This document shows positions 1 to 64,000 of a DNA stretch of 64,000 nucleotides, piece after piece. The stretch covers positions 62,001 through 126,000 of the forward strand of contig OZ237772.1 of the NCBI GenBank assembly GCA_965178125.1. Direction: 5' to 3'. The DNA comes from Bilabrum cf. latius (taxonomy: Eukaryota). Each line of letters starts with the position of its first letter. Within the stretch, counting starts at the first letter, position 1. The notes beneath the pieces are model-generated. The model saw only the letters and a program-made list of their open reading frames with translations, had not been told where the DNA came from and did not search any database. The position numbers and the translations under genes were made by a program.

Positions 1-1139
1 TTGTATTCACAGTCCCACAATGGAGTCGGAACGCAGCTGATGTACTTACACCAATGGCAATACTCCGTCACATCATGCTCCAAAGCCAAGGCTATGCACA
101 TTCCACCCAGTAAGAAAAAGTACACTGCGAGGCTTCCCCATGCTGCACAAATCTAACAAGAGGACCGCTCCTTTCCTCTCACAAGGCAAAAGCACCCCAG
201 GAGAACGCCACCAACACAACCAAACGCATGTGCGAAATTATCAACGATTGGGACTAGACCCAATCCAAGGTTTACCACAGTTACGACAGCCAGCACAAAA
301 AAATCTTTGAAACACCCCCCGGCGCCATACTCATGATCTGGACTTGAAACGACAGTGTACCAGTTCTGGGCAAAATCTCCCCATTGTGAGCCGAGGATGC
401 CAAACATTGCCCCAGATGCACCGACCGTGATCTTGGTAGGTAGCAGCACCGCACTTGCCGCAATCGACAGGATCCCTGAAGCCAAATATATCGGGGCGAA
501 CCGCACCCAAGAGGCATTGCGCTCAAGCTAGAACCCATGCTTGCAAAGAATCCAGGAGTTGCATCCAAGGTGTACGACGCCAACGTGCAAGAATAATGGG
601 GTGATCAGTCTCCAATACTCCCTGTTGAGTACAATCAGTGGAGTGTCCTTCGCGCCCGCAGCGACAAGAACACCTATCGGTGGTCCTATCATGGCATTAT
701 CCACCAAGGGGGCAGCCTTGAAATCAGCCAGGTAGCACTGAAACGTGAAGCCAGCGAGCATCCCGACGAACATCACAATCCCGAACCACGGAATCGGCTG
801 AAGTACATGCTACTCGGCTGGGGGTGCCGTGGAGTCTGGACCAATCCTAGCTGGAGCAGCTGCGGGGGCTGTTGGACTTGGATTCCGGTGGACTTGGGAT
901 CCGTTCAACAAGTTGGCGCTCCGACTCTACACCTTGCCCAGGAGAGGTGCATTTTCACCCATACTGCCTCCTGGTACGTAAATGGGCTCATGGGGCTGCT
1001 AGTTTGCCCATAGAATAGTAGCACTCTGCGCAATTTGCTAGTTCTGCCTGTCTGACGTACTAAATATGGGTGGGGACAACTTGAAAGGCTCGTCATGATC
1101 ATCTGGATCGGGTCCCAGCCGCCACTGGCCCGCGTCCAT
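1..1139 (-). CDS. Rhomboid-family intramembrane serine protease (3' end runs off the window)
   Basis: One frame from ATG 1139 to base 1, broken only by six TAG (1038, 999, 927, 810, 528, 153). Motifs: WRLITPLFLHVGVVHLGCN, GF*LERN, catalytic GASG, DNFAHAFG, and the C-terminal CHWCKYISCVPTPLWDC typical of plant/protist rhomboids, which lies beyond the TAG at 153. Confidence 0.93.
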
Positions 1140-1387
1140 TGTTCTGGAGGCGCAGTCTGATTTCGAGGTTCCAGTGCTCAATACAACCTCACGACAAGGT
1201 TTATTTCGGTTAGACAAATACTATACCCCGTGTGCCTGCCCCGCTGTCGAGCTCAATCCAAGTTGATGGTCAGCCGAAATTAATCCGTGTATGCCCAGAC
1301 GCAAGTTTTGTCCAGTGCTCTGCTGAATTCGGAGCCGCAGCCAAAAAAATTTCTAGACCTCTACCCATGCTTACAAACACACAAATA

Positions 1388-3907
1388 TCAGTCCATGGAA
1401 GCCTGTCCAGCTCCCACGCTACTACCGCGGCCTTGCACCCATCCATTGGCTGGCAGGCCCTACTAAAAGGCCGAGCCCACCCCAGCTCCCTTCGCTCGAG
1501 GCGAGCCCAGCGATGATGACCCATTCCAACTCTCACTCCCACTCCCCACCATCCCACTCCTACCCCCGTCCCCATCCCACCCACCACGATGATCCCCGTC
1601 CATGGCAACCACCCGCTCCGCCGCTGCCCTAGCCAGTCCCTCGGGCAGATAGCTCCTCTCCCCCAGCGCGCTCCGGTCGAATGACCCCATGATGCTCAGG
1701 ATGGGGGCCTGCCCTCGCTGCTGTGCGACGACACGGGCCTGGGCGCCGGGCACGGCCAGCGACGATCCGGACCCGGAGCCGGAACCTGCCCCCACCGCCC
1801 CCATCGCAGCGGAAGGGACCCTGCCCTCTGCGTTCCAACGCCCCAGCATGCGGGCAAGTGAGGCCGGCTGGGCGTCCATTCGAGTCAGCCTGAGCCCGCC
1901 CTAGGCCAGGGTCCGCTGTGCCTGCCGCTGCACCTGCACCCTGTTGCGGGAGGCAGCCGGACTCAGCGCTGGGGAAGGTGGGCCGCCCGACGACGGCATG
2001 CCGCTGCCGCCGCCCCCTCCCCCTGTCCCGAGCAATGCGCTCCCAAGCGTAGCCGGGCCGCTGCTCGTTGCCGCGCCGTGACCAACCCCCTCCGCGTGTT
2101 CCCTGGCAGGCAGCATCGAGGAGAGCCCCGAGGACGTGGCCGCCTCCCCCCACAGTGGGGACGGACCCCTGGCACTCGCCACACCCCCTTCCCCCCTCAT
2201 GCGCTGCATCCTCTCTGCCCTCCTCCTCTCCGCCTCCCTGTGTTCCCTGCCCCGCTGCGCCTCCTCTGCCAGGAACCGGAGGAACACATGCACGCCGGGG
2301 GGCGCCCACGGCTGCACCCGCACGTAGTCGGGTTTCTTCTTCCTGGCGTGCACCAGCCTCTCCTCCGAGAACCGCATGGCCTGCCGCAGGGCTCCCCTGG
2401 CCACTTCCGGTTTGAGCAGCTCTGCGCATGATGGCAGCCAGTGCGGCGCATTGGGACCCTCCTGTGGCCCGGCCGTGCCCGTGCCCCCGATCCCCCCGCC
2501 CTGCCCCAACATGCGCTGCCTGGCGTGCCTCTGTCTGGCCAAGATCTCCCTGGATGCAGAGGGGGGCAGGGCGGCCACACCGGCGAACAGCACGCACCTG
2601 CTGAACTCGTCCTGCACCACAATGAGCTGCACCCCCAGGTGACCCGTCAGCGACGCATCCGCGTGCAGCGACCACACGGCCATGGGCCTGCCCCCCGCTG
2701 GCAGGGAAGAGTCAGCAAGCGACATCCCCCCAGTGCCCGCCCCGTGTCCTAGCCCCAACAGCCGCGCCAGCCCCCCGCCGCCGTGCCGCCTCGATTTGCG
2801 GGCCTGGAACTGCCCCGACTCCTCCTCGTCGTCCCCCTCGTCACCCCCCTGCATCCCCCACGCGCCCCCTCGGGCTCCTGTTCCCCAACCAGCGCCCCAG
2901 CCACCACTGTTCCCCTCCACCGGAGACCAGGTCGTGGACGAGGCCCCACTTCCCGAGCCCTAGCCAGGGGCAGATCCAGTGGCGGAGGCAGGGGCCCAGG
3001 CAAATCCCTGGCCCTGGCCCTGGGCGGGTCCCGGGGTGACCGCGCCGCCCCGTCCACCGGTGGACCGATCCGATCCCAGGGCCACGACAGTCTCGGTACT
3101 GGGTGCTCGCGCCCCCCACTCTCCATTTGTGCCCTGCGCACCCGTGCCCGCCCCCGCCCCCGCGCCCATGCCCACGCCCATGGTCGGGAACGGCTTCTTC
3201 CTGGCAGGTGCCCCCTGGGTGGGGGACGACCCCGCTGATGACCCCCGAGAGGGGGGGTTAGACCCGAATGTACCCCTGGGGGCGGTGGCCTTGCCCCACG
3301 GGTCCATCGCATCGGATCCGGAGCCCCAATTAGTGCCCTGGCTACCGGAGCGGTGTGCCAGTATCCCAGCCCGCGTCCGCTTTCGGCTGGGCCGGGAGGA
3401 TCCTGCACCACCACTCGCACGAGTGCCCGAGCCAGAGCCCGAGCCCCAAGGGGACGGCGGGCCACATCCCGCGCCCGCGCCCGATCCAGGTGCAGTGTGG
3501 GGCTGGGGCTGGGGCTGGGGCTCCTGAGCTGCCGGCGGTGTCCCCCATCCTGCGGAACCCACGGAGGTGCTTCCGCGCGGCGCCGCCTGTGGAAAGCCGC
3601 CCCACACTCCTGCTCCTGTAGTTGACATGCCTTGCTGCCCCGGTGATGGCTTGCCACCCTGTGCGGACGATGACGAGGAGGAGGAGGAGGACGAGGAGCT
3701 GCTGCTGCTGCCGGGCATCGTGGGAGCGCCCGTGTGTCCCGTGGGGGGTGTTATACCCCATCCTGAGACCATTTCGCCCCCGTGGCCTGTCCCTCTGGCG
3801 ATTTTGCCACCGGAGGGCCCGACGGCTCGCTGCGGCTGAGGTGCTCTCAGCTGGGACATGCCAGATCCGGGGCTAGATTGCCACGTGGAGCCCCAACTAT
3901 CGCCCAT
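1388..3907 (-). CDS. Hypothetical Gly/Ser-rich protein (~840 aa) with a central globular-looking segment
   Basis: ORFs 2960-3907, 1901-2920 and 1463-1879 share one frame, joined across TAG at 2960, 1901, 1463 and 1460. ATG 3907, TGA 1388-1390. No family recognised. Confidence 0.7.
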
Positions 3908-4431: not shown

Positions 4432-7400
4432 ATGAGCCCCACATTTGTACCGTTGTTAGTTGCACTCCTGATGGTGGCAGGGGTTCCGACGGTTGTAGGG
4501 GCAGTGAACGGAACGCAGCAGAGCATTGCGGAAGGCAGCCCGATTCCAATCCTGCGAAGCTAGCCCGAGGTCAGAGACAGCCTTGGGTACGCTCTAAGCC
4601 AAGTATCGTCCATGAGAATCGTTGCAGGTGCCCCCGATGGATCTGAGGAAGAAGCCCTCGTGCTCTCGAAGGTGGGGACGAGGTGGGAGATTGACGGACT
4701 CGTTGCTCCGAACGATACGGTGCCGCAGCAAAGCACGAGGCGATTCGGCCATGCAGTTGGCTTTGAGGACCCATTCGTTTTTGTTGGTGCGCCGGAAGAC
4801 GACGAGCAGGGGCAGAATGCCGTGAGAACTGCTCAACGCACTTGCTCATATTGCAGAATGCTCCACCAGCAGTAGCATCCAAACAGCTTCAAGCATGCCA
4901 AGGCACAAAACAAATTGCAACTTTCTGCAGATCGTTTCACTCTACCGCAGGGCGCTATGTACGTGTTCACCCGGCAGCAATCGGGAGGAGTATCCTCTCG
5001 GTCGACCTTCGAGCAAATCGGCCCGCCCACCCGACCCCTCCCAATGCTGAGGCACATGCTCGGCAACGGGATCGCAGAAGCAGGTCCAGCACAGTTCGGG
5101 CGCGTGATCGAGCCTGTGCCTCGAGAGAGCCTGGGCCTCCCCGTCTGGGACGACTCCAGGCAGGGAGTCGTGATCGGGGCTCCGTTCGCTCGACTGGGGA
5201 CGGGCTTGCAGGAGGCGGGGCTGGCCGTCTACTGCGAGGTGCAGGCCGCGGGTGCATCGCACGGTGGTGCGAGGGGCCAGCAGTCGGACGGTCGATCCGA
5301 CGGGACGTGCGCCAGCTGGCAGGTCCTGACCCATCCGGAGCCGCAACTGTCCGCCTCCTTCGGAGCCGCGGCGGGTGCACTGCACGATGGCGCCCACCTG
5401 GCAATCAGCGCCCCCGGCACATCCACCAGGGGACTGCAGGGAGAGGTCCTCCTCTTCAGCAGGCGGCTCGTGTCCAGCGCGCGGGGGGCTGGCCTCCGGG
5501 TTCGATGGGCCCTGGCGCAGCGAGTCCAGCTGGCGCGGGCCTCCATCCCGATCGGGGGCATCGGGGGCATTGGGGCTGGGGCAGGGCAGCAGGTGAGGTG
5601 GAGGGAGCTGGGGCATTCATTAGCCGCTGGGACCGAGAGGGTGGCGGCCGGCGTAAAGATATTCCGGGCCGGATCCGCGGTGCCTACCGGTGGAGTCGTG
5701 GTGATGCGGCTGGTCAGAGGCGCCACAGCCAGCGCGTCTGCACTCGTCACACAGGGTACCATCCTGCCACCCGGGCTGGCAGACTCAGCCACGAATATCA
5801 CGGCGCACCCGCAGGCATACGGAGCCGGGGCACTTCCCCTGAGCCCCGCGGGCGAGGCCTCGTTCGGCGACTCGCTGGCCCTGTCCGCGTCAGACCAGTA
5901 CGTGGCTGTGGGCGCGCCGGACGACGGGGCTCCCGCGGGATCCCCGTTGCGCGGCGCCGCCATCATGTTCCGCGCAGAGACCAACGCTGTCCAGGGTGTA
6001 TTGCACGGTCGCACCATCCTGCGGCCGCCGCCGTTACCAGGCGGCCGTCCAGGCGACACCGCGGGGGCGCGATTCGGCAGCTCCATTCGGGTGACTCCCA
6101 GCTTCGCTGTGGTGGGCGCGCCCGAAGGAACAGTGTCAAACGGAAGGCTCTTTGGGTTCTCCAGCTATCTGTTGTTCCCCATCCAGGCCCCCTCTCTTGT
6201 TCCCCGCGCCGGCTCTTTCTTCGTGCCTGTGGGGGCATCACTTAATGTGACTGCCCTCACCGCGCGGTCGGAGGAACGCGCCTTTGCGACACATGACGGG
6301 TCCGCGCCGGATCCGGCCGGTGCGTTCCTGCTTGGCAACGTGCCCACCACCCGACCCGATCTCCAAGGCAGCGGGGGCGGGGTGCTCCAGGTGCCTGCGC
6401 CCAGCCGGCTGACTGCCTTGGTGACCGTGCGTGCGATCTCGGGCAATGCTTTTGAGGCCGGATCCTTCGGTCCGGAGGCAGTGGGTACCTACAACGTATC
6501 TGTACCCACCATGGGGAGGCAATGGGACCCCATCAACCGCCTGCTAATCGACTGCGGCGCGGTGAACTTGTATTGCCCGGGTACTTTCAGGCCAATGGAC
6601 GCAGTCAGGGTGTCACCCGCCCACTACACCGTCCCCGAATCGGCCCCTCCCGCCCGCAGGGAGAACCAGACCATCTGTGAGCCCCCATTCCTATGCCAGG
6701 CAGGGGTGCGCTCCCCCTGCGGCAGGCCCGTGTGCTGGCCCAGGGTGAGTAGGATGGAGGTGCGGGGGGCGAGGCCGCTGGAATCGACCACGCTGACCCT
6801 GGCTGGTATGGTCGGTGTCACAGGAGCTGGGAGCGGGCGTGTGCGGTGGACTGGCACCGATGGTGCGAATGTCACGTGGTTGCAACCGCCCGCAGGCAGA
6901 CAGGGCACTGTCCACTGGCACGCGCGGCGGTCCCCCGGCCCCTCGGAGGGCGATGTGCTAGAGGCGTGGTTCGATGCTCCCACCAACCAGCCACCGATGG
7001 GCACTGCCATCGAGGTGCACCAGTTCCTGGGTCTATCCACCCCTGTCGCTGAGGCATTCGAGGGGCGCTGGGTCTCACCAGAGCACCTGGTCTTGAGGAT
7101 GATGGGGAGGACTGGGACGGAGCTGGGGCGGGCGCTGCTGGACAGGCAGGCGGGGCTGACACCGGGCGGACGAGGGGGCGGGCTGGGGCTCGGCGCATCC
7201 ACAGCGGTGGTGATGGATGCCAGTGGCAGGCCGTTGTTGCGACCAAATGCGACGGAGGGGCTGCAGGGGGGCAGCAGTGCGAGCGGTTAGAGGGGAAGCG
7301 GCTCTGTACCCGATGGGAAGGAGTGGCTGGACGCGATGCTGTCCGCCGGGATTGTTCCCCAGGATGCAAACAGGCTGGCAGAGGCATACACGCTCGGGCC

Positions 7401-10400
7401 GTTGCGGGTAGGTCAAGGCTAGGGTCAAGGTGGGACGCAGGCTGCGTTCAGCTGCACGCTGCAGCCGGACACAGGCGTGGGCCTCCGACGGGAGGGCAAC
7501 ACGACCAGAGTGGCGTCGGGACCGGAGGTGGTCGTCAACGGGACATGGGGCGACATGGAAGCGCCTGAAGTGGTGCGGGCCACTGCCATCGACTCAGGTA
7601 GGGGCGAGCAGCCCGGCTGGCTGCCGGGTGCTGGTGATGTTCTCGTGGTGGAATTCGCCGCACCTCCCCAGCAGCTCCCTGTGGACACAGAGGAGCAGCT
7701 GCTGTCACTCCTGGACTTTGGACCCGCTGAGCTGTAGGGCTCGATCGGTGGGGCCCGATGGACAGGGGCATACTGCCAGGCTGATGCACCTCTCGCTTGT
7801 CCCGTGGCCCTGGAGATTCAGTTTCACGGTTTCCCTTCGGCAATGGCGAGGCTCGCCCATGCACAGCTCGCCAGTCGATACGATGAGATGGATGGCCTCG
7901 CACTGGATGCAGCAGACGAGCACGTGCTCTCTGAGGTGATGGACCACGAGGCAGAGTACAGCCCATGGCTTGTTGATGATAGCAGGTCTTTGGCAAAGAG
8001 CGACGCGAGTGCCTGGGCGCTGCGAGCCGGGCGACTGCGGGCCGGCGTGCTGCAGGTGAGGGTGAGGCAGGGGTCGGGTCTGCGGACTGCAGATGGACGC
8101 AGCGATGAGGCTGGATTTGGGCCGCTCGTCACGGTTGGTGGCGCGTTTGGCCCGCCCCTAGCAGCTCCTTCCCTTGTCCGCACGTCGCCAGAGTGCGCCG
8201 ATCTCCGTGTGGGCGCAGTGCTGGACCAGCCAGGGTCTGCTCCTGGGCGGCTGCAGGACCCTGTGCCATTGGCTCTGCCTCTGCAGCGGGCGTACCCTCC
8301 TCTGTCCGCTCCTAGCCTGCTGCGAGTGGACTGCGATGTGCTGGATGCCAGCTCGCTTGCAGTCCTTGGGCCTGATGCCCGGTGGCGAGCGGTGAGTCAC
8401 ATCGACCGATGGGAGCTGGTGCGCAACAGCGGCAACTCGAGCGTGGCAGTGGATGCCAGCGTAGCTGGCACCCTAGCCAGTGCCATCGCACTGCTTCCAC
8501 AGGCACCGGGCGCAAAACCACCCGAGGTCGGCGGTCTTCGCGCGGGCTTGCCTCTGATTGCGTCAGTCTCGCTAGTGCCAGGGCATGACGATCTCCCAGT
8601 CAGCGAAGCTGGATCCGGTGCCGTAGGGCTGTTCCCCATCGAAGTCAGTAAACGCATATGCCGCGGTGGACTACTGGCCCGGGTGCCGGCAGTGCCTGCC
8701 ATTGCAGCGCGGTGCCGTGCAGTGACCGGCTCGAGCGCTCTACGGGCGATCGGCAGCACCGGCCCCGGATCTACCCAAATGTAGGTGCCTGCAGCGACTG
8801 ATCACGGCATGGTTCAGGGGTGGTGGGCTGTTGGACCTGCGCCTCTGCTGTTTAGCCCCCTTGATCTAGAGGGATTCGATCCCCGGGGCTCCCGGCTTCA
8901 CACGACCGGCCGGTCCCTGCGGCCCGATGGGTTGTCCGTGGCGAGAATCTCGCCTTCGATGGGACATGGCCGGCATGCCCGAAACCTGCCACTAGAGGTG
9001 ACCATCGGCCCACTCGCAGAGGCATGGCGAGACATCATTGATACAGGTTCCTTTGAGAGTGCAGGCGGTGATCTAGTGAGGCAGAGAAGGAGGCTGGCTG
9101 CAGGCACAGGCGAGTCCGTTGGCCTCGCTTTGTCCGGCGAGTCGCGTCCATCTGGTCTGTTTGCAGAATCTACTTATTTATCACCCCCAACATGCCTACT
9201 GCTCGGAGCAGGCACTGCAGTGCAGTGCTCCATGCCCCAGGGCGGTGGCGGTGCACTGTTCACCGCGATCACGCTGGCCGGCATGCCATCGATATCGGAT
9301 GGGCGCGGTTGCCACATGCCGGGTACGCCAGCCGAGGCGGCGCTCCGATCCGGCGAAGCATGCAGGGAGCAAACGGTCGGCTACGTTGCTCCTCAGGTGC
9401 TCTTGGTTGACTCTCTGGACGGGCCCTGCGCCCGTAGCTTGCTGCTGGCGAGATCGAGGTCGGCGCTGAGCGTCAACGGCTCAACACCTGGCGGCTCTGC
9501 TCTCATCTTGGAGTCACCAGCGGTGCAGGCTGCTTGCCCTACCTCTCTCCGGGACCTGTAGGGACGATCCATCGACGATGCCACCTTGGCTGCTCTGACT
9601 GGACCAGACCCCAGCCTGCGAGGAAATGCTAGCGCTAGCACAGACCCAGGCCCAGCCGCGGGCCTGCTCCTCATTGGCACAAACTTGGGGCATGACCCAG
9701 CGATGCTGAATGTGACTACCCAGGTGAATGGGGGGTCAGTTCCTTCCAACTGCTCCTATCTTGTGCCGCACACACACATCGCTTGCGTGCTGGATGGCCC
9801 CGCCGGCGGATAGGTGGATGTTTCTGTTGAATACGCAGGCCAAGCAGCGACGCCCTCCCAACTGCCTCCTGCCCCTCCAAGAATCGATTCCGTTGAGATA
9901 GTGCGCCTCCAAGCACTCGGCAATGCCTTTGCAGATGCGATGGAGCAGTTGGAAGTGGTGCAAGCTCCTAGGGCAACCAGCAACACATCATTTGAATCCG
10001 AATCGATGGTTGGCCGAGCTAGCAGCGCAACGTCTGCCTAGTAGCTCGGTGTGATGAAGGCTGCTGCTCGCAAGTTCGCACCTGTAGCCCCATTCCCTCG
10101 AGTTCGAGCATTGGTCTCGCTGTTGGAAGCCCTGGACCTGGAGGAAGGCAAGGTGCAGAGGACAGGGGAACCGCCGGGGTGGACGGGGCCTGCTGCCGGG
10201 CCGTGGACCCCTGTCGCAGTGCCAGAGGTGGGCATACCAGGAGGAGTCGCAGGGTCGTTGCTTATAGTCCGCGGGACAGGTTTGGGTCCACGCACGTCAA
10301 ATGCGGCTCGCAGTGACACCTTGGATGGCGAATCCTGGGTAGATCGGGTCTGGACAGACGGGCAGGTGCCGTCGTGGATGCCTCGGCTGCAGATGTTCCC

Positions 10401-30144: not shown

Positions 30145-30254
30145 TGCAGAGGTCAAGTAGAGCTGAGCCAACTGGATTCTCGGTAATTTCAACAAAGAAA
30201 CTGTGGATGCAGCGTGCTTAGTGCCAAAGTGTTGGGTGGCTAGCAGCGCACTCA

Positions 30255-37043: not shown

Positions 37044-37076
<33 letters not shown>

Positions 37077-45200: not shown

Positions 45201-45708
45201 CCTTCGGCCTCATCCTAGTCGCTCCTTGGCGGTTCAAGCTTTGCAAGCGAGGCGCTGTCGAGGCTCCCAGAGTAGATTTGGTCAAGATGCTGGTTTCACG
45301 AGGTGGCCGCCGCCCAGAATCGATAGCACTAGCACCAAGCGAAAAATGCCCATCTGTATACCCGTACTGCATGCCTGCTTCGCCACTGCTACGCCTCCTA
45401 TGCCTTTTACTGCGAGAAAACTCCCGCTACAGTTCTGGTGAGGTGTCATCCCGCGAAGACTGCGTTCTGTCTCGATTACCAGGGGCAAGCAGCAGGCTTG
45501 GGTTGAAGATATGACGCTAATCTATCGCACGTGCAGGTCGCTCAACCGGTCCAGTCTCCGGTGACCGCCCAGCAGCTGAGAGAACTGGGCTGGGGTGCGG
45601 GAGTTGCTCTGCGTCTGCAGTCGATCTGTTGTCGGCAGCTTCTCGGGAACTCGCAGAAGATTGTGCGCGTATATTAAGAAGCTTATCTGTGGGCAAAACA
45701 TCGCTCAT
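42253..45708 (-). CDS. Dual-specificity protein phosphatase (~1,150 aa) with long low-complexity extensions
   Basis: PWQVLPGLLLGSKR*ATDTAVLSRLGVTHVLCVA; P-loop VHCRLGVSRS; IVAFLV..RPEANPH. One frame with 11 TAG (45517, 45427, 45193, 45169, 45157, 45151, 44746, 44311, 44185, 43663, 43651); ends TAA 42253. Confidence 0.88.
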
Positions 45709-49982: not shown

Positions 49983-50683
49983 CTTAAACCAATACTGCGG
50001 GATCAAGCGAAGCTGTTAGCGCGGTCAAAGATCAATCAAATCATGCTGCGGAAGGGATCATGCAAAGACGGTGTGTATGGCCACAATCCGCCCAGATACA
50101 AGAATCACCTTTCCCCGCAGGTGCTCGCTCGTGCATGCTGATCAATGACTGTAGGCTGGCGGAGTACCAAAGTACTTCTTCTGTTTACATATTTAAGCAA
50201 GGTGCTATCGATTCCCTAAGGGAAAACGAATTGGCTATCAGTGGGTTCAGGGTGGAGGCAGTGTAGATGAATCAATACCAAATTTTCAACGCTTTTTGCC
50301 ACACATTCCTGCTGAATATCCAATCATATAGTCATGAACCCAATCATGGCAACATATTTGCAAGAGATACTCACAATAAGGAGGAAATGAGCATGTTGCA
50401 CTCCCAAAGGTTCGCATCATTCAAAATACAGACTAGGCTGTATACCAACACCTTATAAAAGCCTCCAAGCCGTTTCAAACTTATTTTAAACGTGCGGAGG
50501 ACCAGAGAGTCAGCCACAGTTATCTGTTAGATAATCCAATATTCAATGATGGTTGGATCCTTTGTTGCAAAATTTAAACATATTCTTGATTCGTGTGGCC
50601 TGCACCATGCTCCTGTTTCTTTCGTCATCGCAGCAACAGCAAGTGCAGCAATTTAGGCGTAGGCTTTGAGCACTCGCGGCATC

Positions 50684-56600: not shown

Positions 56601-58807
56601 AGCTGACCGGATGCACGGCGCACCCGGGCATGGCGGTGGGAGTGGAACCGCTCGACGCGAAAGCTGCAGCGGGTGCCATGCGGGACGATGACGATGAGGA
56701 TGAGGATGACGATGACGGAGATGATGATGATGACGGCGATTTTGGGGCGCGAGGGGCGCGGTCTGCTTCCGGCGCCGCGCGATCGGAAGCGGAACTACCC
56801 CCGCATACGGTGCTGGGCCGGCACAGCCGCGCCCGCCGCCTCGTGGCCTACCGCGCCCTGCTCCGATTGATGCCTCACGCGGGCGTGCTGTAGGCGGCCG
56901 CCAAGCTGTTCGCGGACTCGATCGGAGCCGCCGCCCAGGGAGCCCTGAGGATGCCTCAGCGACGATCGGAGCTGCTGGTTGCAACCGCACCGTCGGGCGG
57001 GCCCTCCACTCCTCAGGGCAGGGCAGGAGCAGGGGCAGGGGCCGATCGGTCGGGTCTCATGGGTGCCTCCTTTGTGCTGGGGAACAACGCGGGGGAGGTC
57101 GGTGGCGGGTGCGCGGCGCCCTGCAGGGTAAGTTCCGCTAGCCTGCTGGCTGAAATGCGCGGCGCCGCGTACGACGCCGCGTGCGGTGCGCTCGGCCCAC
57201 AGGCCGCAGGTGCCTACGGCAAGGAGGAAGAGGACCTTGGAAATGAAGATGAAGATGGAAGCCCCGAAGATGGGGCGGGTGGTTCCCGCGGGGAAGCCGA
57301 GGGGGCGAGGGCCCTGGGAGCCGTTGGACTGCGCGGCGCCGCGGGAGAGGCCGGTTCCGCAGGCGCGGAGGCCATGCTCTGGGAGGCCCTTCTGGTGCTG
57401 GGGCTGCCAGAGGCGAAGGGTGCTCTCCTGGACGGGGGGCGCCGCGCGGGGGGAGGAGCCGGTTCCGCAGGGGACGACGACGATGGGGCGGCGGCCGCGG
57501 CGGCCGCCGATGCCGCCGCGGGTGGAGTCGCAGCGGCGAAAGCAGCGCTCATGGAGGCAGCCGGTCGCCGCGTGCTGGGCCAGCTGGCGGGAAGGCAGCT
57601 GGAGGAGCAGCTTGTTCCCTGGGCCTGCCAGCTGCTGCCCGCCCTCAGGAGGCTGCGATCGGGACCCGTGTCAAGGGCACTCGTCCGCTGGCTGGCCGGC
57701 GCCGCGGGCCGACTCGGAGCCGAAACGTTCCGCAAGGCGGCGGGGCAGCGGAAGGAAGTCGCCGCGGAGGCGCTGGGCGTCCACGAGCGGGAGAAGAGGG
57801 CCGCGGGCAGAATGCAGAGGGAGAGGGCGAGGGCGATGGCGGCCGAGGCGGCGGGCAGGGAACAAAGGGAGCAGGAGGAGGCCGCGCAGGTTCGAACCCC
57901 GGCGCCGCGCATGCCTGCCGTCACGCCCACCGCTGGGGATGCCGGCGTGGGGGCGGCGTCGGCTGCCGGCGGGCGCGCTCGTCACACCGGTGGCGTGCGG
58001 TCGCTGGCGATGCTGGGGTCTGCCATGAGCAGGGGGCTGCAGAGCGGGCTGCCCGCTGGTGTGACGAGTGCAGCCTCGGGAGCTGCGGGCGAGGAGCCGC
58101 GCAGGGCGGCGCGGCGCGGCGCCGCACGGAGTTCCGTGAAAAAGGCGCCGCGCAACGGTGGTTCCGGAAGCGGCGGGTTCGGCGCGCTTGGCGCGTTGGG
58201 CAACCTGGGTGCGGCGGCGCCGCGCAACGGTAGTTCCGCTGCCGCGATGGAGCCGGTATCCCCCGGCACCCCGGGAGCCGGTGGGGTCCCCTCCTCGGGG
58301 TCTCCGGCCGGTTCCGCAGTTGCGCAGCGCCGCGGGGTCGCGATGTCGGCGCTCAAGAGCCCGCGGCTGCGAGGTTCCGCAGCGCGCGGCGCCTCCGAGA
58401 AGGGAAGGCCAGGGACGGGCATCTCTGCCATGCCGCATTCCGTGTCGGGCGGTCTCCTTGCGGCGCTGGGCCGAAGCAGCGCCAGCGGAACCACCGCCTT
58501 GGTGGACAGTGTCGGTCCATCCACGCGCGGCGCCGGTGGGTCAGGGGGCGCCGGTGACGAGGGTGGCGAAGGTTCGTCCCAAGTTCGCCTGAGCCTCGGG
58601 GGCCGGAGCGGCCGCGGCCTGGTGGAGGCAGGGGCAGGGGCAGGGGGCGATGGGGGCAAGTGGGCCGTGAGCCCCGATGACGTGGGCAATGATGGTGTGA
58701 CGAGTGATACGGGGGGGTCTTTGGCTGGGCTGCCGGCCGAGCAGGACGAGGCCGGGGAGGAGCAGGCTGTGGCGAGCGGCGGGGCAAGTGCTCCGATGCG
58801 GGCATGA
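50684..58807 (+). CDS. NCAPD3: Condensin II HEAT subunit CAP-D3-like protein, inflated to ~2,700 aa by Gly/Ala-rich insertions
   Basis: HEAT/Cnd1-type blocks DKGSAVRARGL, RLDDEAAAVRKSA, WVSAVLPLVRD, AVRRNAVAAVCDI, DPHWGVRAAALTSL..AKWRRPLLLRCVAALGDP, RVLGQLAGRQLEEQLVP in the order recalled for CAP-D3. TAG at 51236, 52391, 56891; TGA 58805. Confidence 0.8.
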
Positions 58808-59097
58808 TGGATTCGCTCGTTAGGGTTAGGGTTAGTGGGGGGGGGGGCATGTCTGGTTGCGAATGCGTGTTTTATGATTTGTTTGTCAGTCGATGATATT
58901 GGATGTTTTATCAGCTTTGAATGTGCCCGCTGGAGTGGAACGGGCGGTGTGCGGCCAGCCAGCTGGACGCACAGCCTGTCACTGCCAGCAGCCGCTCCCA
59001 GCAATCGTCATTATGCACGATTCTGGTTTGTGTTAGGAGGCAACGAACCGGCACACAAAGTCCATAGTTGTCTGAATCAGTTGCTGAGATCGTAACT

Positions 59098-60390
59098 ATG
59101 TCGTAGTCGGGGGGCTCTGTAACCTCATACGAAGAGTGGAAGCGATAGCAGCAATCGAACGCGCAACAGCAACAGGCAGCAGTTGGCCAACAGCAAAGTG
59201 GGCTGCAGTCTAACCACGGCCACGTGATGGGTACTACGCAATTTACCCAAAGTCGGCCATCCGCTGCGGGTGCCGGGCAATTTGCGGTAGGGTACGGAGG
59301 GGTTGGTCTTCAACCAGTTCAGCATGGTCGCGCCTTGGTAGCCCCTCAGTTGGCACATAGCACCGCCGGATAGCATCACGCGCCATATGGAACTGGACCT
59401 ACATTAATATCACAGTGGCAGCAAGGGACATCGATGCCACAGGGTTCGAGCACGACTGGGCCGTCATCATCCCAAACCGCTGCCAGTTTTTCACGCGGCG
59501 TTAGCAGCTCTACCGCACCCTCGTCCAGCGCGACTAGCGCCTCTGGGCATGCACTGCTAGGTGCATCAGCTATGGGAAGCTCGTCAGCTTCTTCTGAAGC
59601 AGCGTCTGCGGGGCCTCCACCGCAGGAGCCGATAGACAAGCGATGGCGAGTGCTCGTTTCGCCGGAAGGCAAGCCCTACTGGTTCAACATTAAGGCAAAC
59701 GCAACCCAATGGGAGCTTCCCTCCGAGCAGGAAGTCCCGAAGGAACAGGCGGAGCAGATGATCGCAGACGCTCTCAAAGCAGACGAGGAGGCGTGGGCCG
59801 GGGCGGAGGAGGTCGCCACCGGCGGTTCCGGAACTGGCGCCGCGCAATCTGATGGGCTGGCCGCCGTGGAGGAGGCTGGTCGGGCGAGGGAGAGGCTCCG
59901 GAGGCGGGCCGCAGAGGCCACGCGGGTGGCTCGGGATTTCCTGCGCATGTGTGACGAGCGAGGGATCCGGAGCCTGAAAGATCTCGCTACGGCGGAAGAG
60001 GCTGCCTCCGGTGATGATGGTGCTAGCGGTGTGATGGGCGACCCTCGTTTCCTGGCGGTAGGGTCTGCCGAGCGGCGGCGGCAGGTGCTCGGTGTCCTCC
60101 TGCAGCGGCGGCGCAGCAGTGGTGGAACTGGATTGGACGGGTCTGAAAGTGCACGCAACATCACTTCAGGGAATGGGGATCATCCAGTCGGGAGAGGTGG
60201 GAATGAGGTGGCTGGTACCAATGGGACACCAGCACCAGCTCCAGCACCAGCACCGGCGACTGCAGGGGCAGGGACAGGGGCAGGGGCAGGCACTGATGAT
60301 GGAGCTGTGAAGAGTTCTTCTAGTGCTACTGCTAGCGGCAGTGCAGCTGTTTCAGACAGCAAGGGTGCCAGCACAGTCCATTCATTCTAA
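59098..60390 (+). CDS. WW-domain protein with an FF-like domain and Gln-rich N-terminus (PRP40/TCERG1-like modules)
   Basis: WW: WRVLVSPEGKPYWFNIKANATQWELP; FF-like DFLRMCDE..GDPRFLAV..ERRRQV. TAG at 59104, 59146, 59371; ends TAA 60388. Alternative start at 58921 possible. Confidence 0.75.
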
Positions 60391-60512: not shown

Positions 60513-62366
60513 TCACTCGCTGCTCTTGCTCTTCGCCTCTGCGAGTGGCCGAGGCGGCAGCGGCCGCTCCACCGTCCGGATCACGTGCCTCAACTCGATC
60601 GGAGCAATCGTCACACCAGCACCCACGCCGGGCAGGTCCCTCGGGTCTGTCGGTCTTCGGGCCGGCGGTGCCATCCGTTGTTCCCTGGCTTGTTCCTCCC
60701 GTGCCGCGGCCTCTGCCGCAAGCCACAGTCGGCCGCTTCGGAGCACCTGCTCGGTGATCAGCCGAGCGAGCAAGTCTGCCTCTTTGGGCGCGATCGGGAG
60801 CACCTGCTCCTTCGTTTGCTCGCTCTACCGCTCCTTGTCGTCTGGCGGTGCACTCTCCGGCTGGGTGCTTCCGTCTGTTGCAGGATGTGCCTCGGCAGCC
60901 GCATGTGCATCGGCATCGGCATCGGCTTCCCCCTTCGCTTGCTCCGCTTCCCTCGATGATCGGAGCAGCTCTGCCTCTCTCGATCGGAGCAGTGCTTCTA
61001 TCTGCTTCTCTTCCTCTTCTTGATCATCCTCTTCGTCGTCTTGGTATTTCTTCTCCGCCTTGCCATCGCCACCACGCCCCCCGGCACTGCCGCTGCCGCT
61101 GCCATCTGCCGACCCATCCTACCCACCAGCCCCGAAGGCCGAACTGCCGGAAGCTACGGCACCCGATCCGGCATCACTCGTCACACCAACCACGGCCAAA
61201 GAGGCCTCTTCGCCCGCCAGGCGAGCCGCCCTCACGCGCCTGGCTTGTTCCCTGGACCGCTGCACCCCGTGTAGAGCCAGGCGACGCGCAATTCTGTTCC
61301 GCATGGCCTCCCCGGCCCTCTGCACCGCCGCCGCAGCCTGTTCTCTGGTTCCGCAAGCGGGTTGCGCGGCGCCAATCAGGTCTTCGATGGCCGCCAGGGC
61401 CAGTCTCAGGCCCACCACGGCCACCTCTCGCCTGCACCCGGCCGCCTGGCTGGCCCGAATGACGGCAACCGCTGCGTCCGCGATGGAGTGTGTGACGAGT
61501 GCGCGCCTGGGGAGTGGCTGGCGAGAGTGGTCCTCGATCATGGTTCCGCTGGGAGCCACCGGTTGCGCGGCGCCGGACATCCATCCTGGATGTTCCGCAG
61601 CGCCCCAGCGCGCCCCTGCTGCGGGCAGGGTCGGGGGCATCGGCGCGGGCAGGGGCAGGGACGGCGCGGCTAGGCCAAGGGCAGCAGCAACGGCTGCCGT
61701 CTGTCGAGCCGCATCCGGAGCCAAAATGGCGTCCGCCCAGGGAACTCGGGTATCGCAGGCTGCAGTTGCAACCGCTTGCTCGCGCTCGGCTGCCTGCCGT
61801 GCTATCGCTTTCTCCCGCTCCTATGACTCTGCTTTTGCTTTTGCGTCTGCTTCTTCCGCGGCAGCAGCTGCAGCAGCCTCCGCTGCCTTGCCTCCTTTAC
61901 CTGCCTTTCCGCTCGGTTTGCCGCCTTTCCTCTCGATGGGCTCTCCGGCATCTGCACCTGAATCTTGGGCGGTTGTTGCAGAAGCTTCAGCTAGCTATGA
62001 CTAAGCTGAGTTGTAACTTGCGGCAATACTTGCTGCGTCTTCTGAGTGAGCTCCTGATAGCAAAAAATCCACGAGAGAAGCGTTGATCCTGCTGCTCCAT
62101 GGACCTGTGCAGTCAGAACAAGCGGCATGAGCCGGCGTGGCTTCGCGATCAGCTTCGGCCTACATAGAAGTAGCAATTGCAGCGCTTGCGTTGGCCGAAT
62201 CATCCTTGGACTCCTGTTCCGCATGTCTGGGCCCCTGCTCGATACCCGGATCGTTAACCTCGACCTTGATACCAGACGCGCTGGCATCTTGAATCATGGC
62301 GGATGCTTCTCCAGCCTACCAGCATTCTCGGATGATTCGAGTTAGTTCACTTGTGCTGCCTTCCAT
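60513..62366 (-). CDS. Hypothetical Ala/Glu-rich protein (~620 aa)
   Basis: One frame with seven TAG and no TAA/TGA from ATG 62366 (or 62429) to TGA 60513. No family recognised. Confidence 0.65.
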
Positions 62367-62576
62367 TCGCACTATCGTGTAGTCTTTGTGCCAGATACAA
62401 CGGAAAACTTCGCCGTCGCCGCGCATCATGACTGCGGAACCAAACACACCCAAGTGACGTGACGTCGTCATTGTTTTTCTTGCCCGAATACCTCTGCGTC
62501 AGCATATGGCTCCACAGTCTGGTTCGACTGCTTTAGTGATACCAGGATACGGCTATTGACCATCAGTGCGACCTGC

Positions 62577-64000
62577 ATGGAGTCGAGAAGACGACGTCGT
62601 GGTGCATCGTCATCACCACGCTTTCGAGCGGAGCAGCCGGCAGGAAGAGTCCAAGCGTTGCGTAGAAGTTCATTGACATATTGTCTGAGCGCATTAAAAT
62701 TCCGCGAGCCCCGCTTGATCCACCCGCATATTGTCACTGTCCTGCTATGCTGGATGATCGCATGTGCAACTGCCGCAAAACCGGTGTGGCGACGAGCAAA
62801 CACTGGTCTTCCCAGCAGCGGGAGTCAGTACTTTGCCGACGATGATACATCGGAAATTCAGCCACCTCCGGCAGGCATGGGATGGAGGTCTGGGCACGTC
62901 CTTGCGGGTGCGGTGACGTGCGGCGGACTCGAGAGCGGGACCACGGCTGGCAGTCGCAGACTGTCGGACCCACGCACTGACCCAAGAATAACACAAGATC
63001 AAGCATCGAATACCGATACAAATCGTGCACTCCAGTCTCCATCGAATCCACACGGAGACAGCCCAACCCTGTGGCTGCTCGCGTTCGGCGGCCAGGTGGG
63101 CGATGGCCCCCACGCCCTGCGATCAGACCTGCAGGTGGCCCGGTACTCGATCGGAGCAAGCGGTGAGGCATCACAGACAGAAAATGCCGATCGCACGGGC
63201 GATGCATCGCGCGGTGGCGCATCGCAGCTGGACTGGCTTGTCCCCGAAATAGTGGGGGATCCCGCAGCGTCGAGGGGGCTTTGCTCCCCTGGGAGCCCGC
63301 GAACCTTCGCCGAAGGTTCGTGCGAGCCGGTCCCATCTGCAAGGGCGTTCGCGGGCGGGGGCAGCAGGGGCAGCGAGATGGTCGTGTTCGGCGGGCTGGG
63401 TGCTGGCGGTGACCTGGGTGACCTGTGGAGTGCCAGAGTGCTAGAGCGAGAGGTGCAGGTGCAGGACGATGTCACGATGGCAGCAGCGTCAGCAGCAGCC
63501 GGAGGCAGGAATGGGGATGGTGGAAGCACGAGGCCCCCAGAAGAGGAAGAACATGGTGGTGCTCGCCGGTCCTCCACCACACCGCAGGGTGGTCAACGTG
63601 AGGGCAGCGGCAGTGTGCAGGTGGCCTGGACGCGACTTTGGCCACCGCAAGGAGCACTCGTCACACCACTGATGGATGCGTGCCAGGACGGACCAGCTGA
63701 CGCGAACCGAGCGGTTTCAAGGGGTCTTCTGCTCTGCCCTAGGCCTCGGCGGGAGGCTGTCGTGGCCGTGTGGGAGGGCATGGTGTTCGTGGCCGGCGGG
63801 GGCTGGTCCCTGGGAGCAGCGATCGGGCCAGTGCCTGGGAGCACCAGCACGTCCGGTCTTTGGGGTGAGCTGGGGGCAGGGGGTGGCGCGTTTGTTCCCC
63901 AGCCCACTCAGGTGGAGGCTGGGCCAGGGCTGTGGGTATGGACGGACGGTTGGTCTGCCGGATCGGGTGCATCGCACGATGGTGCTAGCGGCCAGTGGCA
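62577..64000 (+). CDS. Kelch-repeat protein (partial, runs off the window)
   Basis: Frame open from ATG 62577 to window end; Kelch-like WRSGH..LLAFGG, PSARAFAGG..MVVFGG..DLGDLW, PRPRREA..MVFVAGG. Confidence 0.7.
   Translation, partial: MESRRRRRGASSSPRFRAEQPAGRVQALRRSSLTYCLSALKFREPRLIHPHIVTVLLCWMIACATAAKPVWRRANTGLPSSGSQYFADDDTSEIQPPPAGMGWRSGHVLAGAVTCGGLESGTTAGSRRLSDPRTDPRITQDQASNTDTNRALQSPSNPHGDSPTLWLLAFGGQVGDGPHALRSDLQVARYSIGASGEASQTENADRTGDASRGGASQLDWLVPEIVGDPAASRGLCSPGSPRTFAEGSCEPVPSARAFAGGGSRGSEMVVFGGLGAGGDLGDLWSARVLEREVQVQDDVTMAAASAAAGGRNGDGGSTRPPEEEEHGGARRSSTTPQGGQREGSGSVQVAWTRLWPPQGALVTPLMDACQDGPADANRAVSRGLLLCPRPRREAVVAVWEGMVFVAGGGWSLGAAIGPVPGSTSTSGLWGELGAGGGAFVPQPTQVEAGPGLWVWTDGWSAGSGASHDGASGQW

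What the first reader, a model, noticed from the sequence alone, without database searches (positions are those of the whole stretch)
1..64000. Non-standard nuclear genetic code: UAG reads as glutamine while UAA and UGA remain stops
Seen: about 90 in-frame TAG codons (manual count) in 15 genes on both strands. The frame and recognisable domains continue straight through them, and no in-frame TAA/TGA occurs in the inferred exons. Established knowledge: nuclear UAG and UAA are usually reassigned together. Split meanings are rare, e.g. UAG=Gln in the fornicate Iotanema spirale and UAG=Leu in an uncultured rhizarian, plus some ciliates; the assignment equals NCBI table 15. Inference: this GC-rich flagellate resembles none of those, so it may be an independent, undescribed reassignment. 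It would need a tRNA-Gln(CUA) and an eRF1 that ignores UAG; neither gene is in this window.
Basis: partly seen in the sequence, partly recalled or inferred. Interest (0 to 1): 0.97.

Follow-up and report, generated by a model that had tools for sequence, protein, structure and literature searches.

The report
Nuclear genes reading UAG as glutamine
This GC-rich stretch of an unidentified eukaryote's nuclear genome uses the stop codon UAG as an ordinary amino-acid codon, most likely glutamine, while UAA and UGA still end genes, which is a rare but already described kind of genetic code.

Summary
Sixteen gene models on both strands hold 95 in-frame TAG codons in 14 genes. There is no internal TAA or TGA in 17,683 codons, and all 14 complete genes end in TGA (10) or TAA (4). 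Only TAG-as-sense opens long frames of 3286, 2782 and 1961 aa.

Contigs of three other runs, which I infer are RNA, remove five GT..AG introns that the DNA run keeps, and still carry the TAGs unchanged.

Glutamine is the best-supported meaning:
- One TAG lies on the Q of the acid-lipase GxSQG motif.
- Q scores best of 12 residues tried in Pfam for that gene.
- The sequence context of TAG sites looks like Gln, not Glu.
- In two related taxa, TAG or stop positions pair with Q at 7 sites and with E at 2-3 of 14.

Glutamate remains a weak rival.

The code itself (UAG=Gln, UAA/UGA=stop) is known from Iotanema and some ciliates. This genome (63% GC, UGA the main stop) differs sharply from both, so an independent origin is likely. 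I could not name the organism, and neither the tRNA nor eRF1 could be examined.

The parts
3..1139 (-). Rhomboid-family protease gene. It has 6 in-frame TAG and its 3' end runs off the window.
   Evidence: Pfam Rhomboid 1.8e-29; closest solved structures are iRhom1/2; TAG count.
1388..3907 (-). Low-complexity Gly/Ser/Ala-rich protein gene with 4 TAG. It ends in TGA.
   Evidence: Open frame only under TAG=sense; no Pfam family.
4432..14292 (+). Giant (3286 aa) FG-GAP / IPT-TIG membrane protein gene with 14 TAG. It ends in TGA.
   Evidence: One TAG sits inside a GQGxGQG repeat at aa 997.
17193..21524 (+). FG-GAP protein gene with a long mucin-like 16-residue tandem repeat. It has 6 TAG and ends in TGA.
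   Evidence: Pfam FG-GAP 3.4e-20; TAG count.
22593..25303 (-). RCC1-repeat (RPGR-like) gene of two exons, with an intron at 24368-24576. It has 4 TAG and ends in TGA.
   Evidence: Pfam WD40_RLD/RCC1. A joint skipping 209 bases (CT..AC) is seen in X5, X6 and X7 but not in X1. Splicing gives one 834-codon frame. A single spliced X5 contig covers all 4 TAG with no other letters.
25592..27856 (-). Acid-lipase-type alpha/beta hydrolase gene with 4 TAG. It ends in TAA. The TAG at 26612-26614 lies on the Q of the GxSQG nucleophile motif.
   Evidence: Pfam Abhydro_lipase and Abhydrolase_1. The alignment to gastric lipases 1k8q and 1hlg puts the TAG opposite the Q of GHSQGT.
27973..30144 (+). Gene of unknown family with three exons (introns 28011-28102 and 28213-28324). 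It has 3 TAG and ends in TGA.
   Evidence: GT..AG joints in X5 and X6; the spliced frame of 656 codons is open.
30255..31341 (-). NmrA/HSCARG-like gene of two exons (intron about 30860-30956). It has 0 TAG and ends in TGA at the same place where its relatives end.
   Evidence: Joint in X6. Splicing joins two frames into 329 aa. Pfam NmrA 1.2e-32. Homologues end at the same C-terminus.
32281..38079 (+). Ankyrin-repeat protein gene (1932 aa) with 15 TAG, some inside poly-Q runs. It ends in TAA.
   Evidence: Pfam Ank families; TAG contexts. Fragments of its orthologue in two related taxa are P0234-P0240, P0250 and P0251.
38472..41738 (-). Coiled-coil protein gene with an intron at 41235-41366. 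It has 5 TAG and ends in TGA. Its 5' end is not defined.
   Evidence: Joint skipping 132 bases (CT..AC) in X5, X6 and X7; spliced frame open.
42253..45708 (-). Dual-specificity phosphatase gene with 11 TAG. It ends in TAA.
   Evidence: Pfam DSPc 2.1e-11; TAG count.
46457..48427 (+). Thioredoxin-domain membrane protein gene with 7 TAG. It ends in TGA. A 5' exon is probably missing from this model.
   Evidence: The Pfam Thioredoxin match starts only at profile position 27; TAG count.
50546..58807 (+). Ala/Gly-rich HEAT-repeat protein gene (2753 aa) in a stretch of 69-74% GC. It has 5 TAG and ends in TGA.
58921..60390 (+). WW-domain protein gene with 4 TAG. It ends in TAA.
   Evidence: Pfam WW; TAG count.
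60513..62471 (-). Gene of unknown family with 7 TAG. It ends in TGA.
62577..63998 (+). Kelch-like gene with 0 TAG. It runs off the window end.
   Evidence: Weak Pfam Kelch match, below the curated cut-off.

Best explanation
The window is nuclear DNA of an unidentified, GC-rich, intron-poor eukaryote. Its cytoplasmic translation reads UAG as a sense codon, most likely glutamine. UAA and UGA remain the only terminators.

Shown here:
- UAG stands in frame about once per 186 codons and makes up 12% of putative Gln codons.
- It remains in the spliced contigs that I take to be mRNA.
- It lies inside conserved domains.

Inferred:
- Decoding by a cognate tRNA with anticodon CUA, charged with Gln. One anticodon change in a tRNA-Gln(CUG) would give it.
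- An eRF1 that no longer recognises UAG but still recognises UAA and UGA.
- That the trait is shared by at least two related taxa.
For: 1. Frame evidence.
- 95 in-frame TAG against 0 internal TAA/TGA in 17,683 codons of 16 gene models.
- Off-frames hold about 295 TAA/TGA.
- Only TAG-as-sense opens long frames; the TAA-as-sense control gives nothing.

2. These are real genes. Pfam domains are found in 12 of 16 models, and several matched stretches span TAG codons.

3. Nuclear, and TAG kept in the transcript.
- Contigs of runs X5, X6 and X7 (two studies) carry five joints that remove 92-209-base GT..AG stretches.
- The DNA run X1 keeps all five stretches.
- All four gene models built from these joints read open.
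- No 'other letters' were reported over the 19,901 bases laid.
- The listed pieces of these runs cover 19 of the 31 in-frame TAG in that stretch.
- Some of those TAG lie in contigs that themselves span a splice joint.

4. Meaning.
- The TAG at lipase residue 446 aligns to the Q of GHSQG in 2 of 2 alignments shown (1k8q, 1hlg).
- For the lipase segment, Q gives the highest summed Pfam score of 12 residues tried: Q 88.6, H 87.6, R 87.4, E 83.2, D 81.1 bits, with X as baseline at 84.5.
- Over five domain segments, Q beats E by about 4-5 bits.
- The residues flanking 94 TAG sites give LLR(Q-E) = +11.3 bits. Held-out true-Q sets give +32 +/- 15 and true-E sets -40 +/- 15.
- In orthologue fragments from two related taxa, 14 informative TAG/stop columns pair with Q at 7, E at 2-3 and other residues at 4. 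That gives a likelihood ratio Q:E of about 50 to 800 or more.
- All other amino acids are at least 15 bits worse on the window-TAG columns.

5. Terminators. 14 of 14 complete genes end in TGA or TAA. The NmrA gene ends in TGA at the C-terminus shared with its homologues.
Against: - No tRNA(CUA), no eRF1 and no peptide evidence could be examined. The amino acid is inferred statistically from few conserved columns.
- Taken alone, the eight window-TAG columns in the relatives (Q4, E3, M1) do not separate Q from E. With all eight, E is 3-5 bits ahead. Without the poorly aligned one, Q is 0.5-1.6 bits ahead.
- Two well-aligned TAG sites (aa 118 and 1374 of the ankyrin gene) face E in the relatives.
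- Pfam slightly prefers E in the RCC1 and Ank segments.
- A 20-way context classifier did not return Q: its best was M, with Q 12.5 bits behind.
- The runs with spliced contigs are not on record as RNA, and the tool guesses X5 to be 'probably DNA'. The no-editing argument therefore rests on my inference from the splice joints.
- Three relatives' ORF ends face G/W, P/L and S rather than Q. Their stop codons were not seen as DNA.
- Whether UAG also terminates some genes cannot be excluded. In 3 genes the last TAG lies only 21-32 codons before the TGA.
Confidence: 0.87

Rival explanations
1. UAG is a sense codon but is read as glutamate, as UAR is in Blastocrithidia or UAG in the ciliate PL0344, through a tRNA-Glu-derived CUA tRNA.
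For: - In the related taxa, window TAG sites face E at aa 118 and aa 1374 (both well aligned) and at aa 1269 (poorly aligned).
- With all eight window-TAG columns, E is 3-5 bits ahead of Q.
- Pfam prefers E over Q by 0.3-1.0 bit in the RCC1 segment and 1.6 bits in the Ank segment.
- In the rhomboid alignment the TAG faces D.
Against: - E is the second-worst of 12 residues in the lipase segment: 83.2 bits against 88.6 for Q. The GxSQG column faces Q.
- The context LLR of TAG sites lies 3.6 SD above true-E sets and 1.4 SD below true-Q sets.
- The relatives' ORF ends face window CAG (Q) at 3 sites and never face E. The overall tally is Q 7: E 2-3, while ordinary E codons keep E in 47 of 68 columns and become Q in only 3 of 68.
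Confidence: 0.06
2. UAG has a dual, context-dependent meaning. It is sense inside genes and also a terminator at some gene ends, as in Condylostoma, karyorelicts, or UAA in Blastocrithidia.
For: - My models cannot detect a terminating TAG, because frames were extended through every TAG.
- In 3 genes the last TAG lies only 21-32 codons before the TGA/TAA. The chance distance to the next TAA/TGA is about 60 codons.
Against: - 14 of 14 complete genes reach a TGA or TAA.
- The one gene whose C-terminus can be checked against homologues (NmrA) ends in TGA.
- TAG in frame is as frequent as in the off-frames. That does not suggest a codon kept rare because it is ambiguous.
Confidence: 0.05
3. UAG is not translated at all. 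On this reading the TAG codons are sequencing errors, pseudogene lesions, RNA-edited sites or unrecognised introns.
For: The runs that show spliced forms are not on record as RNA, so editing is excluded only by inference.
Against: - Runs from three studies show the same letters, with no 'other letters' in any.
- Decay would not give 95 TAG and 0 TAA/TGA.
- TAG codons lie inside contigs that are contiguous on both sides and that cross real splice joints.
- The relatives' orthologue is also broken into same-order, same-frame ORF pieces.
Confidence: 0.01
4. The window belongs to an already described UAG=Gln organism (Iotanema spirale, Protocruzia or a phyllopharyngean ciliate), so nothing about it is new.
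For: - The code variant is the same.
- The organism's name is hidden from me.
- The runs date from 2025, so the organism is clearly under study.
Against: - Stop usage is TGA 10 / TAA 4, against UGA 15 / UAA 104 in Iotanema (p = 6e-6).
- The window is 63% GC, and UGA is the main stop. [quoted passage not shown]
- A 64-kb contiguous stretch with 16 genes and 92-209-base introns is unlike ciliate macronuclear DNA as I recall it; that last point is recalled, not tested.
Confidence: 0.07

Closest known systems
Iotanema spirale (Fornicata, Metamonada) nuclear code: UAG=Gln, UAA/UGA=stop (Panek et al. 2017, PMC5304391; abstract, section 7 and passages read)
   Same: - The same assignment is inferred here: UAG sense (Gln), with UAA and UGA kept as terminators.
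- UAG is a minority Gln codon in both: about 8% there and 12% here.
- UAG is not seen as a terminator in either.
   Different: - Iotanema ends 104 of 119 genes with UAA. This window ends 10 of 14 with TGA.
- This genome is 63% GC.
- The eRF1 change reported for Iotanema (GTS to GGS) could not be looked for.
- Relatedness was not tested.
Ciliates with UAG-only reassignment: Protocruzia tuzeti and two phyllopharyngean lineages (UAG=Gln), another phyllopharyngean lineage (UAG=Leu) (McGowan et al. 2024, PMC11687900; passages read)
   Same: UAG is decoupled from UAA. Cognate CUA suppressor tRNAs are the proposed mechanism.
   Different: - Those genomes are 27-54% GC, with UAA as the main stop and UGA as the rarest.
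- Here UGA is the main stop and GC is 63%.
- Gene and intron architecture here is not ciliate-like; this point is recalled, not tested.
Rhizarian exLh (UAG=Leu) and Scotinosphaera (UAG=Ser)
   Same: UAG alone is reassigned in a non-ciliate nuclear genome.
   Different: Leu and Ser are at least 15 bits worse than Q/E on the relatives' columns. In the lipase Pfam test they score 83.9 and 85.1 bits against 88.6 for Q.
Blastocrithidia (UAR=Glu, UGA=Trp, UAA also stop) (PMC12153298; passages read)
   Same: A flagellate nuclear code with UAG read by a cognate tRNA(CUA). Glu is the only serious rival meaning here.
   Different: - There is no in-frame TAA or TGA here.
- Cis-spliced GT..AG introns occur in 4 of 16 genes, and the coding strand switches often.
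- This window is 63% GC, against 39-46% in Blastocrithidia ORFs.
Phage 'genetic code 15' (TAG=Gln in crAss-like and Lak phages)
   Same: The same codon and the same amino acid (search listings only).
   Different: Those are phages of bacteria. Here the genes carry spliceosomal-type introns and eukaryotic domain families.

Membership tests
Nuclear code with UAG=Gln and UAA/UGA=stop (NCBI table 15 assignment; Iotanema type) | UAG occurs in frame inside genuine protein-coding sequence. | tested here: met
   95 TAG in 14 of 16 gene models, and Pfam domains run across them. Frames open only under TAG=sense.
Nuclear code with UAG=Gln and UAA/UGA=stop (NCBI table 15 assignment; Iotanema type) | UAG is present in the mature mRNA, neither edited nor spliced out. 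| tested here: met
   Spliced contigs of X5, X6 and X7 carry TAG with no other letters. The listed pieces cover 19 of 31 TAG. Caveat: the RNA nature of these runs is inferred from their splice joints, not recorded.
Nuclear code with UAG=Gln and UAA/UGA=stop (NCBI table 15 assignment; Iotanema type) | UAG columns correspond to glutamine in homologues. | tested here: met
   GxSQG column. Q is best of 12 residues in Pfam for the lipase, and +4-5 bits over E across five segments. Context LLR. Relatives tally Q 7: E 2-3 of 14. This is statistical evidence from few columns. There is no proteomics.
Nuclear code with UAG=Gln and UAA/UGA=stop (NCBI table 15 assignment; Iotanema type) | UAA and UGA are never in frame and do terminate genes. 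| tested here: met
   0 internal TAA/TGA in 17,683 codons, and 14 of 14 complete genes end in TGA (10) or TAA (4). The off-frame expectation is about 295.
Nuclear code with UAG=Gln and UAA/UGA=stop (NCBI table 15 assignment; Iotanema type) | UAG is never used as a terminator. | tested here: inconclusive
   Only one C-terminus could be checked against homologues (NmrA, which ends in TGA). My models read through every TAG by construction.
Nuclear code with UAG=Gln and UAA/UGA=stop (NCBI table 15 assignment; Iotanema type) | A cognate tRNA-Gln with anticodon CUA. | not testable with these tools
   No tRNA in the window (ARAGORN; Rfam), and no genome is held.
Nuclear code with UAG=Gln and UAA/UGA=stop (NCBI table 15 assignment; Iotanema type) | An eRF1 N-domain altered so that UAG is not recognised. 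| not testable with these tools
   No eRF1 family among the Pfam hits of the frames scanned, and no genome is held.
Iotanema spirale / Caviomonadidae lineage | UAA is the predominant terminator (104 of 119 genes). | tested here: not met
   TAA ends 4 of 14 genes here. Fisher p = 6e-6.
Ciliate UAG reassignments (Phyllopharyngea, Protocruzia) | GC of 27-54%, with UAA the most used stop and UGA the least used. | tested here: not met
   The window is 62.9% GC and TGA ends 10 of 14 genes.
Blastocrithidia-type code (UAR=Glu, UGA=Trp) | In-frame UAA and UGA as sense codons. | tested here: not met
   None in 17,683 codons.

The most novel reading that the evidence does not exclude
This is an independent, not yet described origin of the UAG-to-Gln reassignment, in a GC-rich lineage that is neither a ciliate nor a fornicate. 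It is shared by a small clade of at least three taxa or strains, in which UAG positions turn over like synonymous sites. It arose in a genome where UGA is the main terminator and G+C is high. That is a setting in which AT-pressure 'codon capture' cannot explain the loss of UAG as a stop, which points instead to a tRNA-Gln(CUG-to-CUA) ambiguous-intermediate route.
Probability: 0.5. Interest if true: 0.8.

Novelty: new member of a known kind. Interest (0 to 1): 0.7.

Why it matters
Nuclear codes in which UAG and UAA have different meanings are few. In the papers I read they are Iotanema, a rhizarian, Scotinosphaera and a handful of ciliates. Each one bears on how eRF1 can be made to tell UAG from UAA.

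A further case in a 63% GC genome that ends most genes with UGA would be a useful contrast:
- High G+C is the opposite of the AT pressure that PMC12153298 invokes for Blastocrithidia.
- McGowan et al. (PMC11687900) note that low GC does not by itself explain ciliate reassignments.
- The case would also provide a new eRF1 and suppressor-tRNA pair to compare with the GTS-to-GGS change reported for Iotanema.

There is a practical point too. Standard-code gene callers shred this organism's genes. Its relatives' orthologue appears in public protein collections as pieces of 65-569 residues.

Tried and rejected
- Whole genome: none is held. A tRNA(CUA), eRF1 and 18S could therefore not be sought.
- tRNA and RNA-family scans of the window found nothing.
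- Earlier notes of this scan held nothing by place, by relatives or by words.
- The look-up of sequencing runs listed no RNA holder. I treat X5-X7 as RNA-derived only because of their splice joints.
- Two scans of metagenome contigs, with NmrA exon 2 and with an alignment of an ankyrin-gene segment, found no relative.
The family of that gene stays unknown.
- The 20-way neighbour-context classifier was inconclusive: its best was M. This is probably because ordinary Q sites are inflated by CAG-repeat slippage. Only the pairwise Q-versus-E form was informative, and with Q, E, D, K and R neighbours removed it has no power (ratio 1.4).
- The window-TAG columns in the relatives cannot by themselves separate Q from E.
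- RCC1 and NmrA homologue searches gave no taxonomic placement. The best named hits are animals and oomycetes at 30-37% identity, and bacteria at 35-39%.
- Literature searches for a described GC-rich, non-ciliate UAG=Gln organism found none beyond Iotanema. The library holds open-licence papers only, and supplements were not read.
- A Fisher test used 11 TGA by miscount. It was redone with 10.
Full report
**What is in the window.**

The 64-kb window is 62.9% G+C, rising to 69-74% between 52 and 60 kb. Under the standard code the longest stop-free frame is 1499 aa. Reading TAG as sense gives frames of 3286, 2782, 1961, 1461 and 1194 aa. The control with TAA as sense gives no gain. TGA-as-sense only inflates noise, because TGA is the commonest stop triplet here.

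The long TAG-containing frames carry eukaryotic domain families: rhomboid, FG-GAP and IPT/TIG, RCC1, acid lipase, ankyrin, dual-specificity phosphatase, thioredoxin, HEAT and WW. An NmrA-like gene appears once an intron is removed.

My models take the first ATG of each frame plus five exon junctions. They give:
- 16 genes on both strands;
- 95 in-frame TAG in 14 of them;
- no internal TAA or TGA in 17,683 codons;
- TGA (10) or TAA (4) at the end of all 14 complete genes.

In the two off-frames of the same DNA, TAG occurs 103 and 99 times, TAA 34 and 43 times, and TGA 254 and 260 times. In frame, therefore, TAG is as common as by chance, while about 295 expected TAA/TGA are absent.

**Nuclear, spliced, and TAG kept in the transcript.**

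One DNA sample (X1-X4) holds all sampled words of the stretch I searched with (22500-32400). Three further runs from two other studies (X5, X6, X7) hold part of them.

I laid four runs (X1, X5, X6, X7) on 22000-41900. The X5-X7 contigs carry joints that skip 209, 92, 112, 97 and 132 bases. Each skipped stretch has GT..AG ends, or CT..AC on the minus strand. X1 runs through all five.

The skipped stretches begin GTGAG, GTAAG or GTGGG. All end in GCAG. All four spliced gene models read open: an 834-codon RCC1 gene, the 329-residue NmrA gene, a 656-codon gene and a 1045-codon coiled-coil gene.

I therefore read these contigs as spliced mRNA. The runs are not on record as RNA, and the tool guesses X5 to be DNA, so this step is an inference.

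No differing letters were reported anywhere on the 19,901 bases. The listed pieces of X5-X7 cover 19 of the 31 in-frame TAG of that stretch. These include TAG codons in contigs that themselves cross a splice joint: all 4 of the RCC1 gene, 1 of the coiled-coil gene in three runs, and 1 of the 28-kb gene in two runs. Editing, splicing-out, sequencing error and pseudogene decay are thus very unlikely.

**Which amino acid.** This needed care, because glutamate turned out to be a real rival.

(a) The TAG at lipase residue 446 faces the Q of the GHSQGT nucleophile motif in both gastric-lipase alignments shown.

(b) I ran a Codetta-like test, scoring the same domain segments in Pfam with TAG read as X, Q or E. 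Scores in bits:

| Pfam family | X | Q | E |
|---|---|---|---|
| Abhydro_lipase | 50.7 | 51.9 | 51.3 |
| Abhydrolase_1 | 33.8 | 36.7 | 31.9 |
| Rhomboid | 105.6 | 107.3 | 107.1 |
| FG-GAP | 77.9 | 80.1 | 78.9 |
| WD40_RLD | 113.6 | 114.0 | 114.3 |
| Ank_2 | 35.4 | 36.0 | 37.6 |

Taking these families, Q is ahead of E by about 4-5 bits. Nearly all of that comes from the lipase. For the lipase segment, Q has the best summed score of the 12 residues tried: Q 88.6, H 87.6, R 87.4, M and Y 86.5, K and A 85.3, W 85.2, S 85.1, L 83.9, E 83.2, D 81.1.

(c) Context. The residues within three positions of 94 TAG sites give a Q-versus-E log-likelihood ratio of +11.3 bits. Held-out sets of 94 true Q sites give +32 +/- 15, and true E sets give -40 +/- 15. 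Without Q and E neighbours the figures are +10.3 against +12 +/- 10 and -21 +/- 11. A 20-way version of this classifier was inconclusive.

(d) Relatives. Protein searches found ORF fragments of the ankyrin-gene orthologue, and a 96%-identical NmrA fragment, from two related taxa or strains. One lies on an 18,723-nt contig. The other lies on contigs of 2,291 and 2,279 nt. Over 1,201 aligned columns of the ankyrin gene the fragments are 77% identical to the window. The two relatives are 94-99% identical to each other.

Window TAG sites face the following residues in the relatives:
- Q at aa 249, 832, 1147 and 1522;
- E at aa 118 and 1374, and at aa 1269, which is poorly aligned;
- M at aa 820;
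- a gap at aa 1621;
- an ORF end at aa 1685.

Conversely, the relatives' ORF ends face:
- window CAG at three sites, one of which is also Q in the other relative;
- window TAG at one site;
- G/W, P/L and S at three sites.

Ordinary Q codons keep Q in 40 of 67 columns and become E in 1. Ordinary E codons keep E in 47 of 68 and become Q in 3. The window-TAG columns alone do not separate Q from E. The full tally of Q 7 against E 2-3 among 14 columns gives a likelihood ratio of about 50 to 800 or more for Q. Every other amino acid is at least 15 bits worse.

Taken together, I put Gln at about 0.9 given that UAG is sense, Glu at about 0.06, and anything else at about 0.02 or less.

**A clade, not a single genome.** The relatives' orthologue is cut into same-order fragments: 65-569 residues in one set, 83-569 in the other. 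The break points differ between the two relatives and from the window's TAG sites, apart from one shared site at aa 1685.

This is what in-frame TAG codons look like to a standard-code gene caller. It suggests that the code is shared and that TAG positions turn over quickly. The relatives' DNA was not seen, so the identity of their in-frame stops is inferred.

**Comparison with what is known.** UAG-only reassignments in nuclear genomes are in print for the following (passages of PMC11687900 and PMC5304391):
- Iotanema spirale (Gln);
- a rhizarian from Lygus (Leu);
- Scotinosphaera (Ser);
- Protocruzia tuzeti and two phyllopharyngean lineages (Gln);
- another phyllopharyngean lineage (Leu);
- the ciliate PL0344 (UAA=Lys, UAG=Glu).

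The assignment found here equals that of Iotanema, so the kind of code is known. The genome differs from the described carriers in three ways:
- Iotanema ends 104 of 119 genes with UAA and 15 with UGA (section 7 of PMC5304391). Here the figures are 4 TAA and 10 TGA of 14 (p = 6e-6).
- Phyllopharyngean ciliates are 27-54% GC, with UAA the commonest stop and UGA the rarest.
- Blastocrithidia also reads UAA and UGA as sense and has AT-shifted ORFs. There are none in frame here.

An independent origin is therefore likely but not shown. No marker gene lies in the window, no genome is held, and names are coded. Homologue searches gave no placement. 'Flagellate' is unverified.

Seven full-text searches found no description of a GC-rich, non-ciliate organism with this code other than Iotanema. 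The library covers only open-licence papers and preprints, and supplements were closed.

**Mechanism.**
- Shown: UAG is in frame, frequent (12% of putative Gln codons), kept in spliced transcripts, and compatible with Gln. UAA and UGA terminate.
- Inferred from the established biology of such codes: a cognate tRNA with anticodon CUA, most simply a tRNA-Gln(CUG) with one anticodon change. Such a tRNA reads UAG but not UAA. The second inferred part is an eRF1 that has lost UAG recognition.
- Neither gene lies in the window.
- Whether UAG still terminates some genes is open.

**Verdict.** The claim of an undescribed, independent reassignment is plausible but untested. I file this as a new member of a known kind of genetic code, of real interest to specialists mainly because of its GC-rich, UGA-terminating setting.

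Noticed in passing
window 18700-20500 (inside the gene at 17193-21524, + strand): There is a long, near-perfect tandem array of a 16-residue Ser/Thr/Pro/Ala-rich unit, several dozen copies by eye. It sits between the FG-GAP head and a Cys-rich stalk, a transmembrane segment and a short tail. The layout looks like an integrin-alpha-like or mucin-like surface protein (translation).
   Followed up: no
window 28640-29303: Summed contig depth jumps to about 5000 in X1 and X5, about 2200 in X6 and about 780 in X7. The neighbouring bins are at 10-30. Many contigs fit two places and leave loose ends here. The segment is a simple-repeat, low-complexity coding stretch shared with many other loci of the genome.
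   Followed up: no
window 14293-17138: This 2.8-kb stretch has no long open frame under either code: the best is 169 aa, with 8 TAG. Its G+C is lower (about 59%). It lies between two FG-GAP genes on the same strand. It may be a promoter or untranslated region, or a non-coding gene.
   Followed up: partly
window 30163-32343: One X5 contig runs unspliced through the NmrA intron, while an X6 contig removes it. Either an intron is retained or DNA is carried over in X5. The same contig continues into the 5' end of the ankyrin gene on the other strand.
   Followed up: no
window 30255-31341 (NmrA-like gene): This gene has no TAG among its 330 codons. After the two close relatives and two unnamed sequences at 45-47% identity, its nearest named homologues are bacterial NmrA/HSCARG proteins at 35-39% identity. 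That hints at a gene of bacterial origin. It was not tested by a tree.
   Followed up: no
all five introns: 24368-24576, 28011-28102, 28213-28324, ~30860-30956, 41235-41366: The introns are few (in 4 of 16 genes), short (92-209 bases) and sit in the 5' part of their genes. They start GTGAG, GTAAG or GTGGG, and all end in GCAG.
   Followed up: partly
relatives' proteins P0239 / P0250 and P0238 / P0251 (orthologues of window 32281-38079): At two places one relative has an ORF end where the other has W or L, and the window has G or P. If these stops are TAG, the sites are simply fast-evolving. If they are TGA or TAA, one copy is damaged or misassembled.
   Followed up: partly
runs X1-X8: The same sequence, letter for letter, stands in runs filed under three different coded organism labels from three studies of the same year. 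The organism may live with, in, or as a contaminant of others. I did not pursue this.
   Followed up: no
window 52000-58000: The HEAT-repeat gene is extremely Ala/Gly-rich and reaches 74% G+C. Many long antisense and off-frame ORFs arise there by composition alone, so ORF length is not evidence of a gene in this stretch.
   Followed up: no
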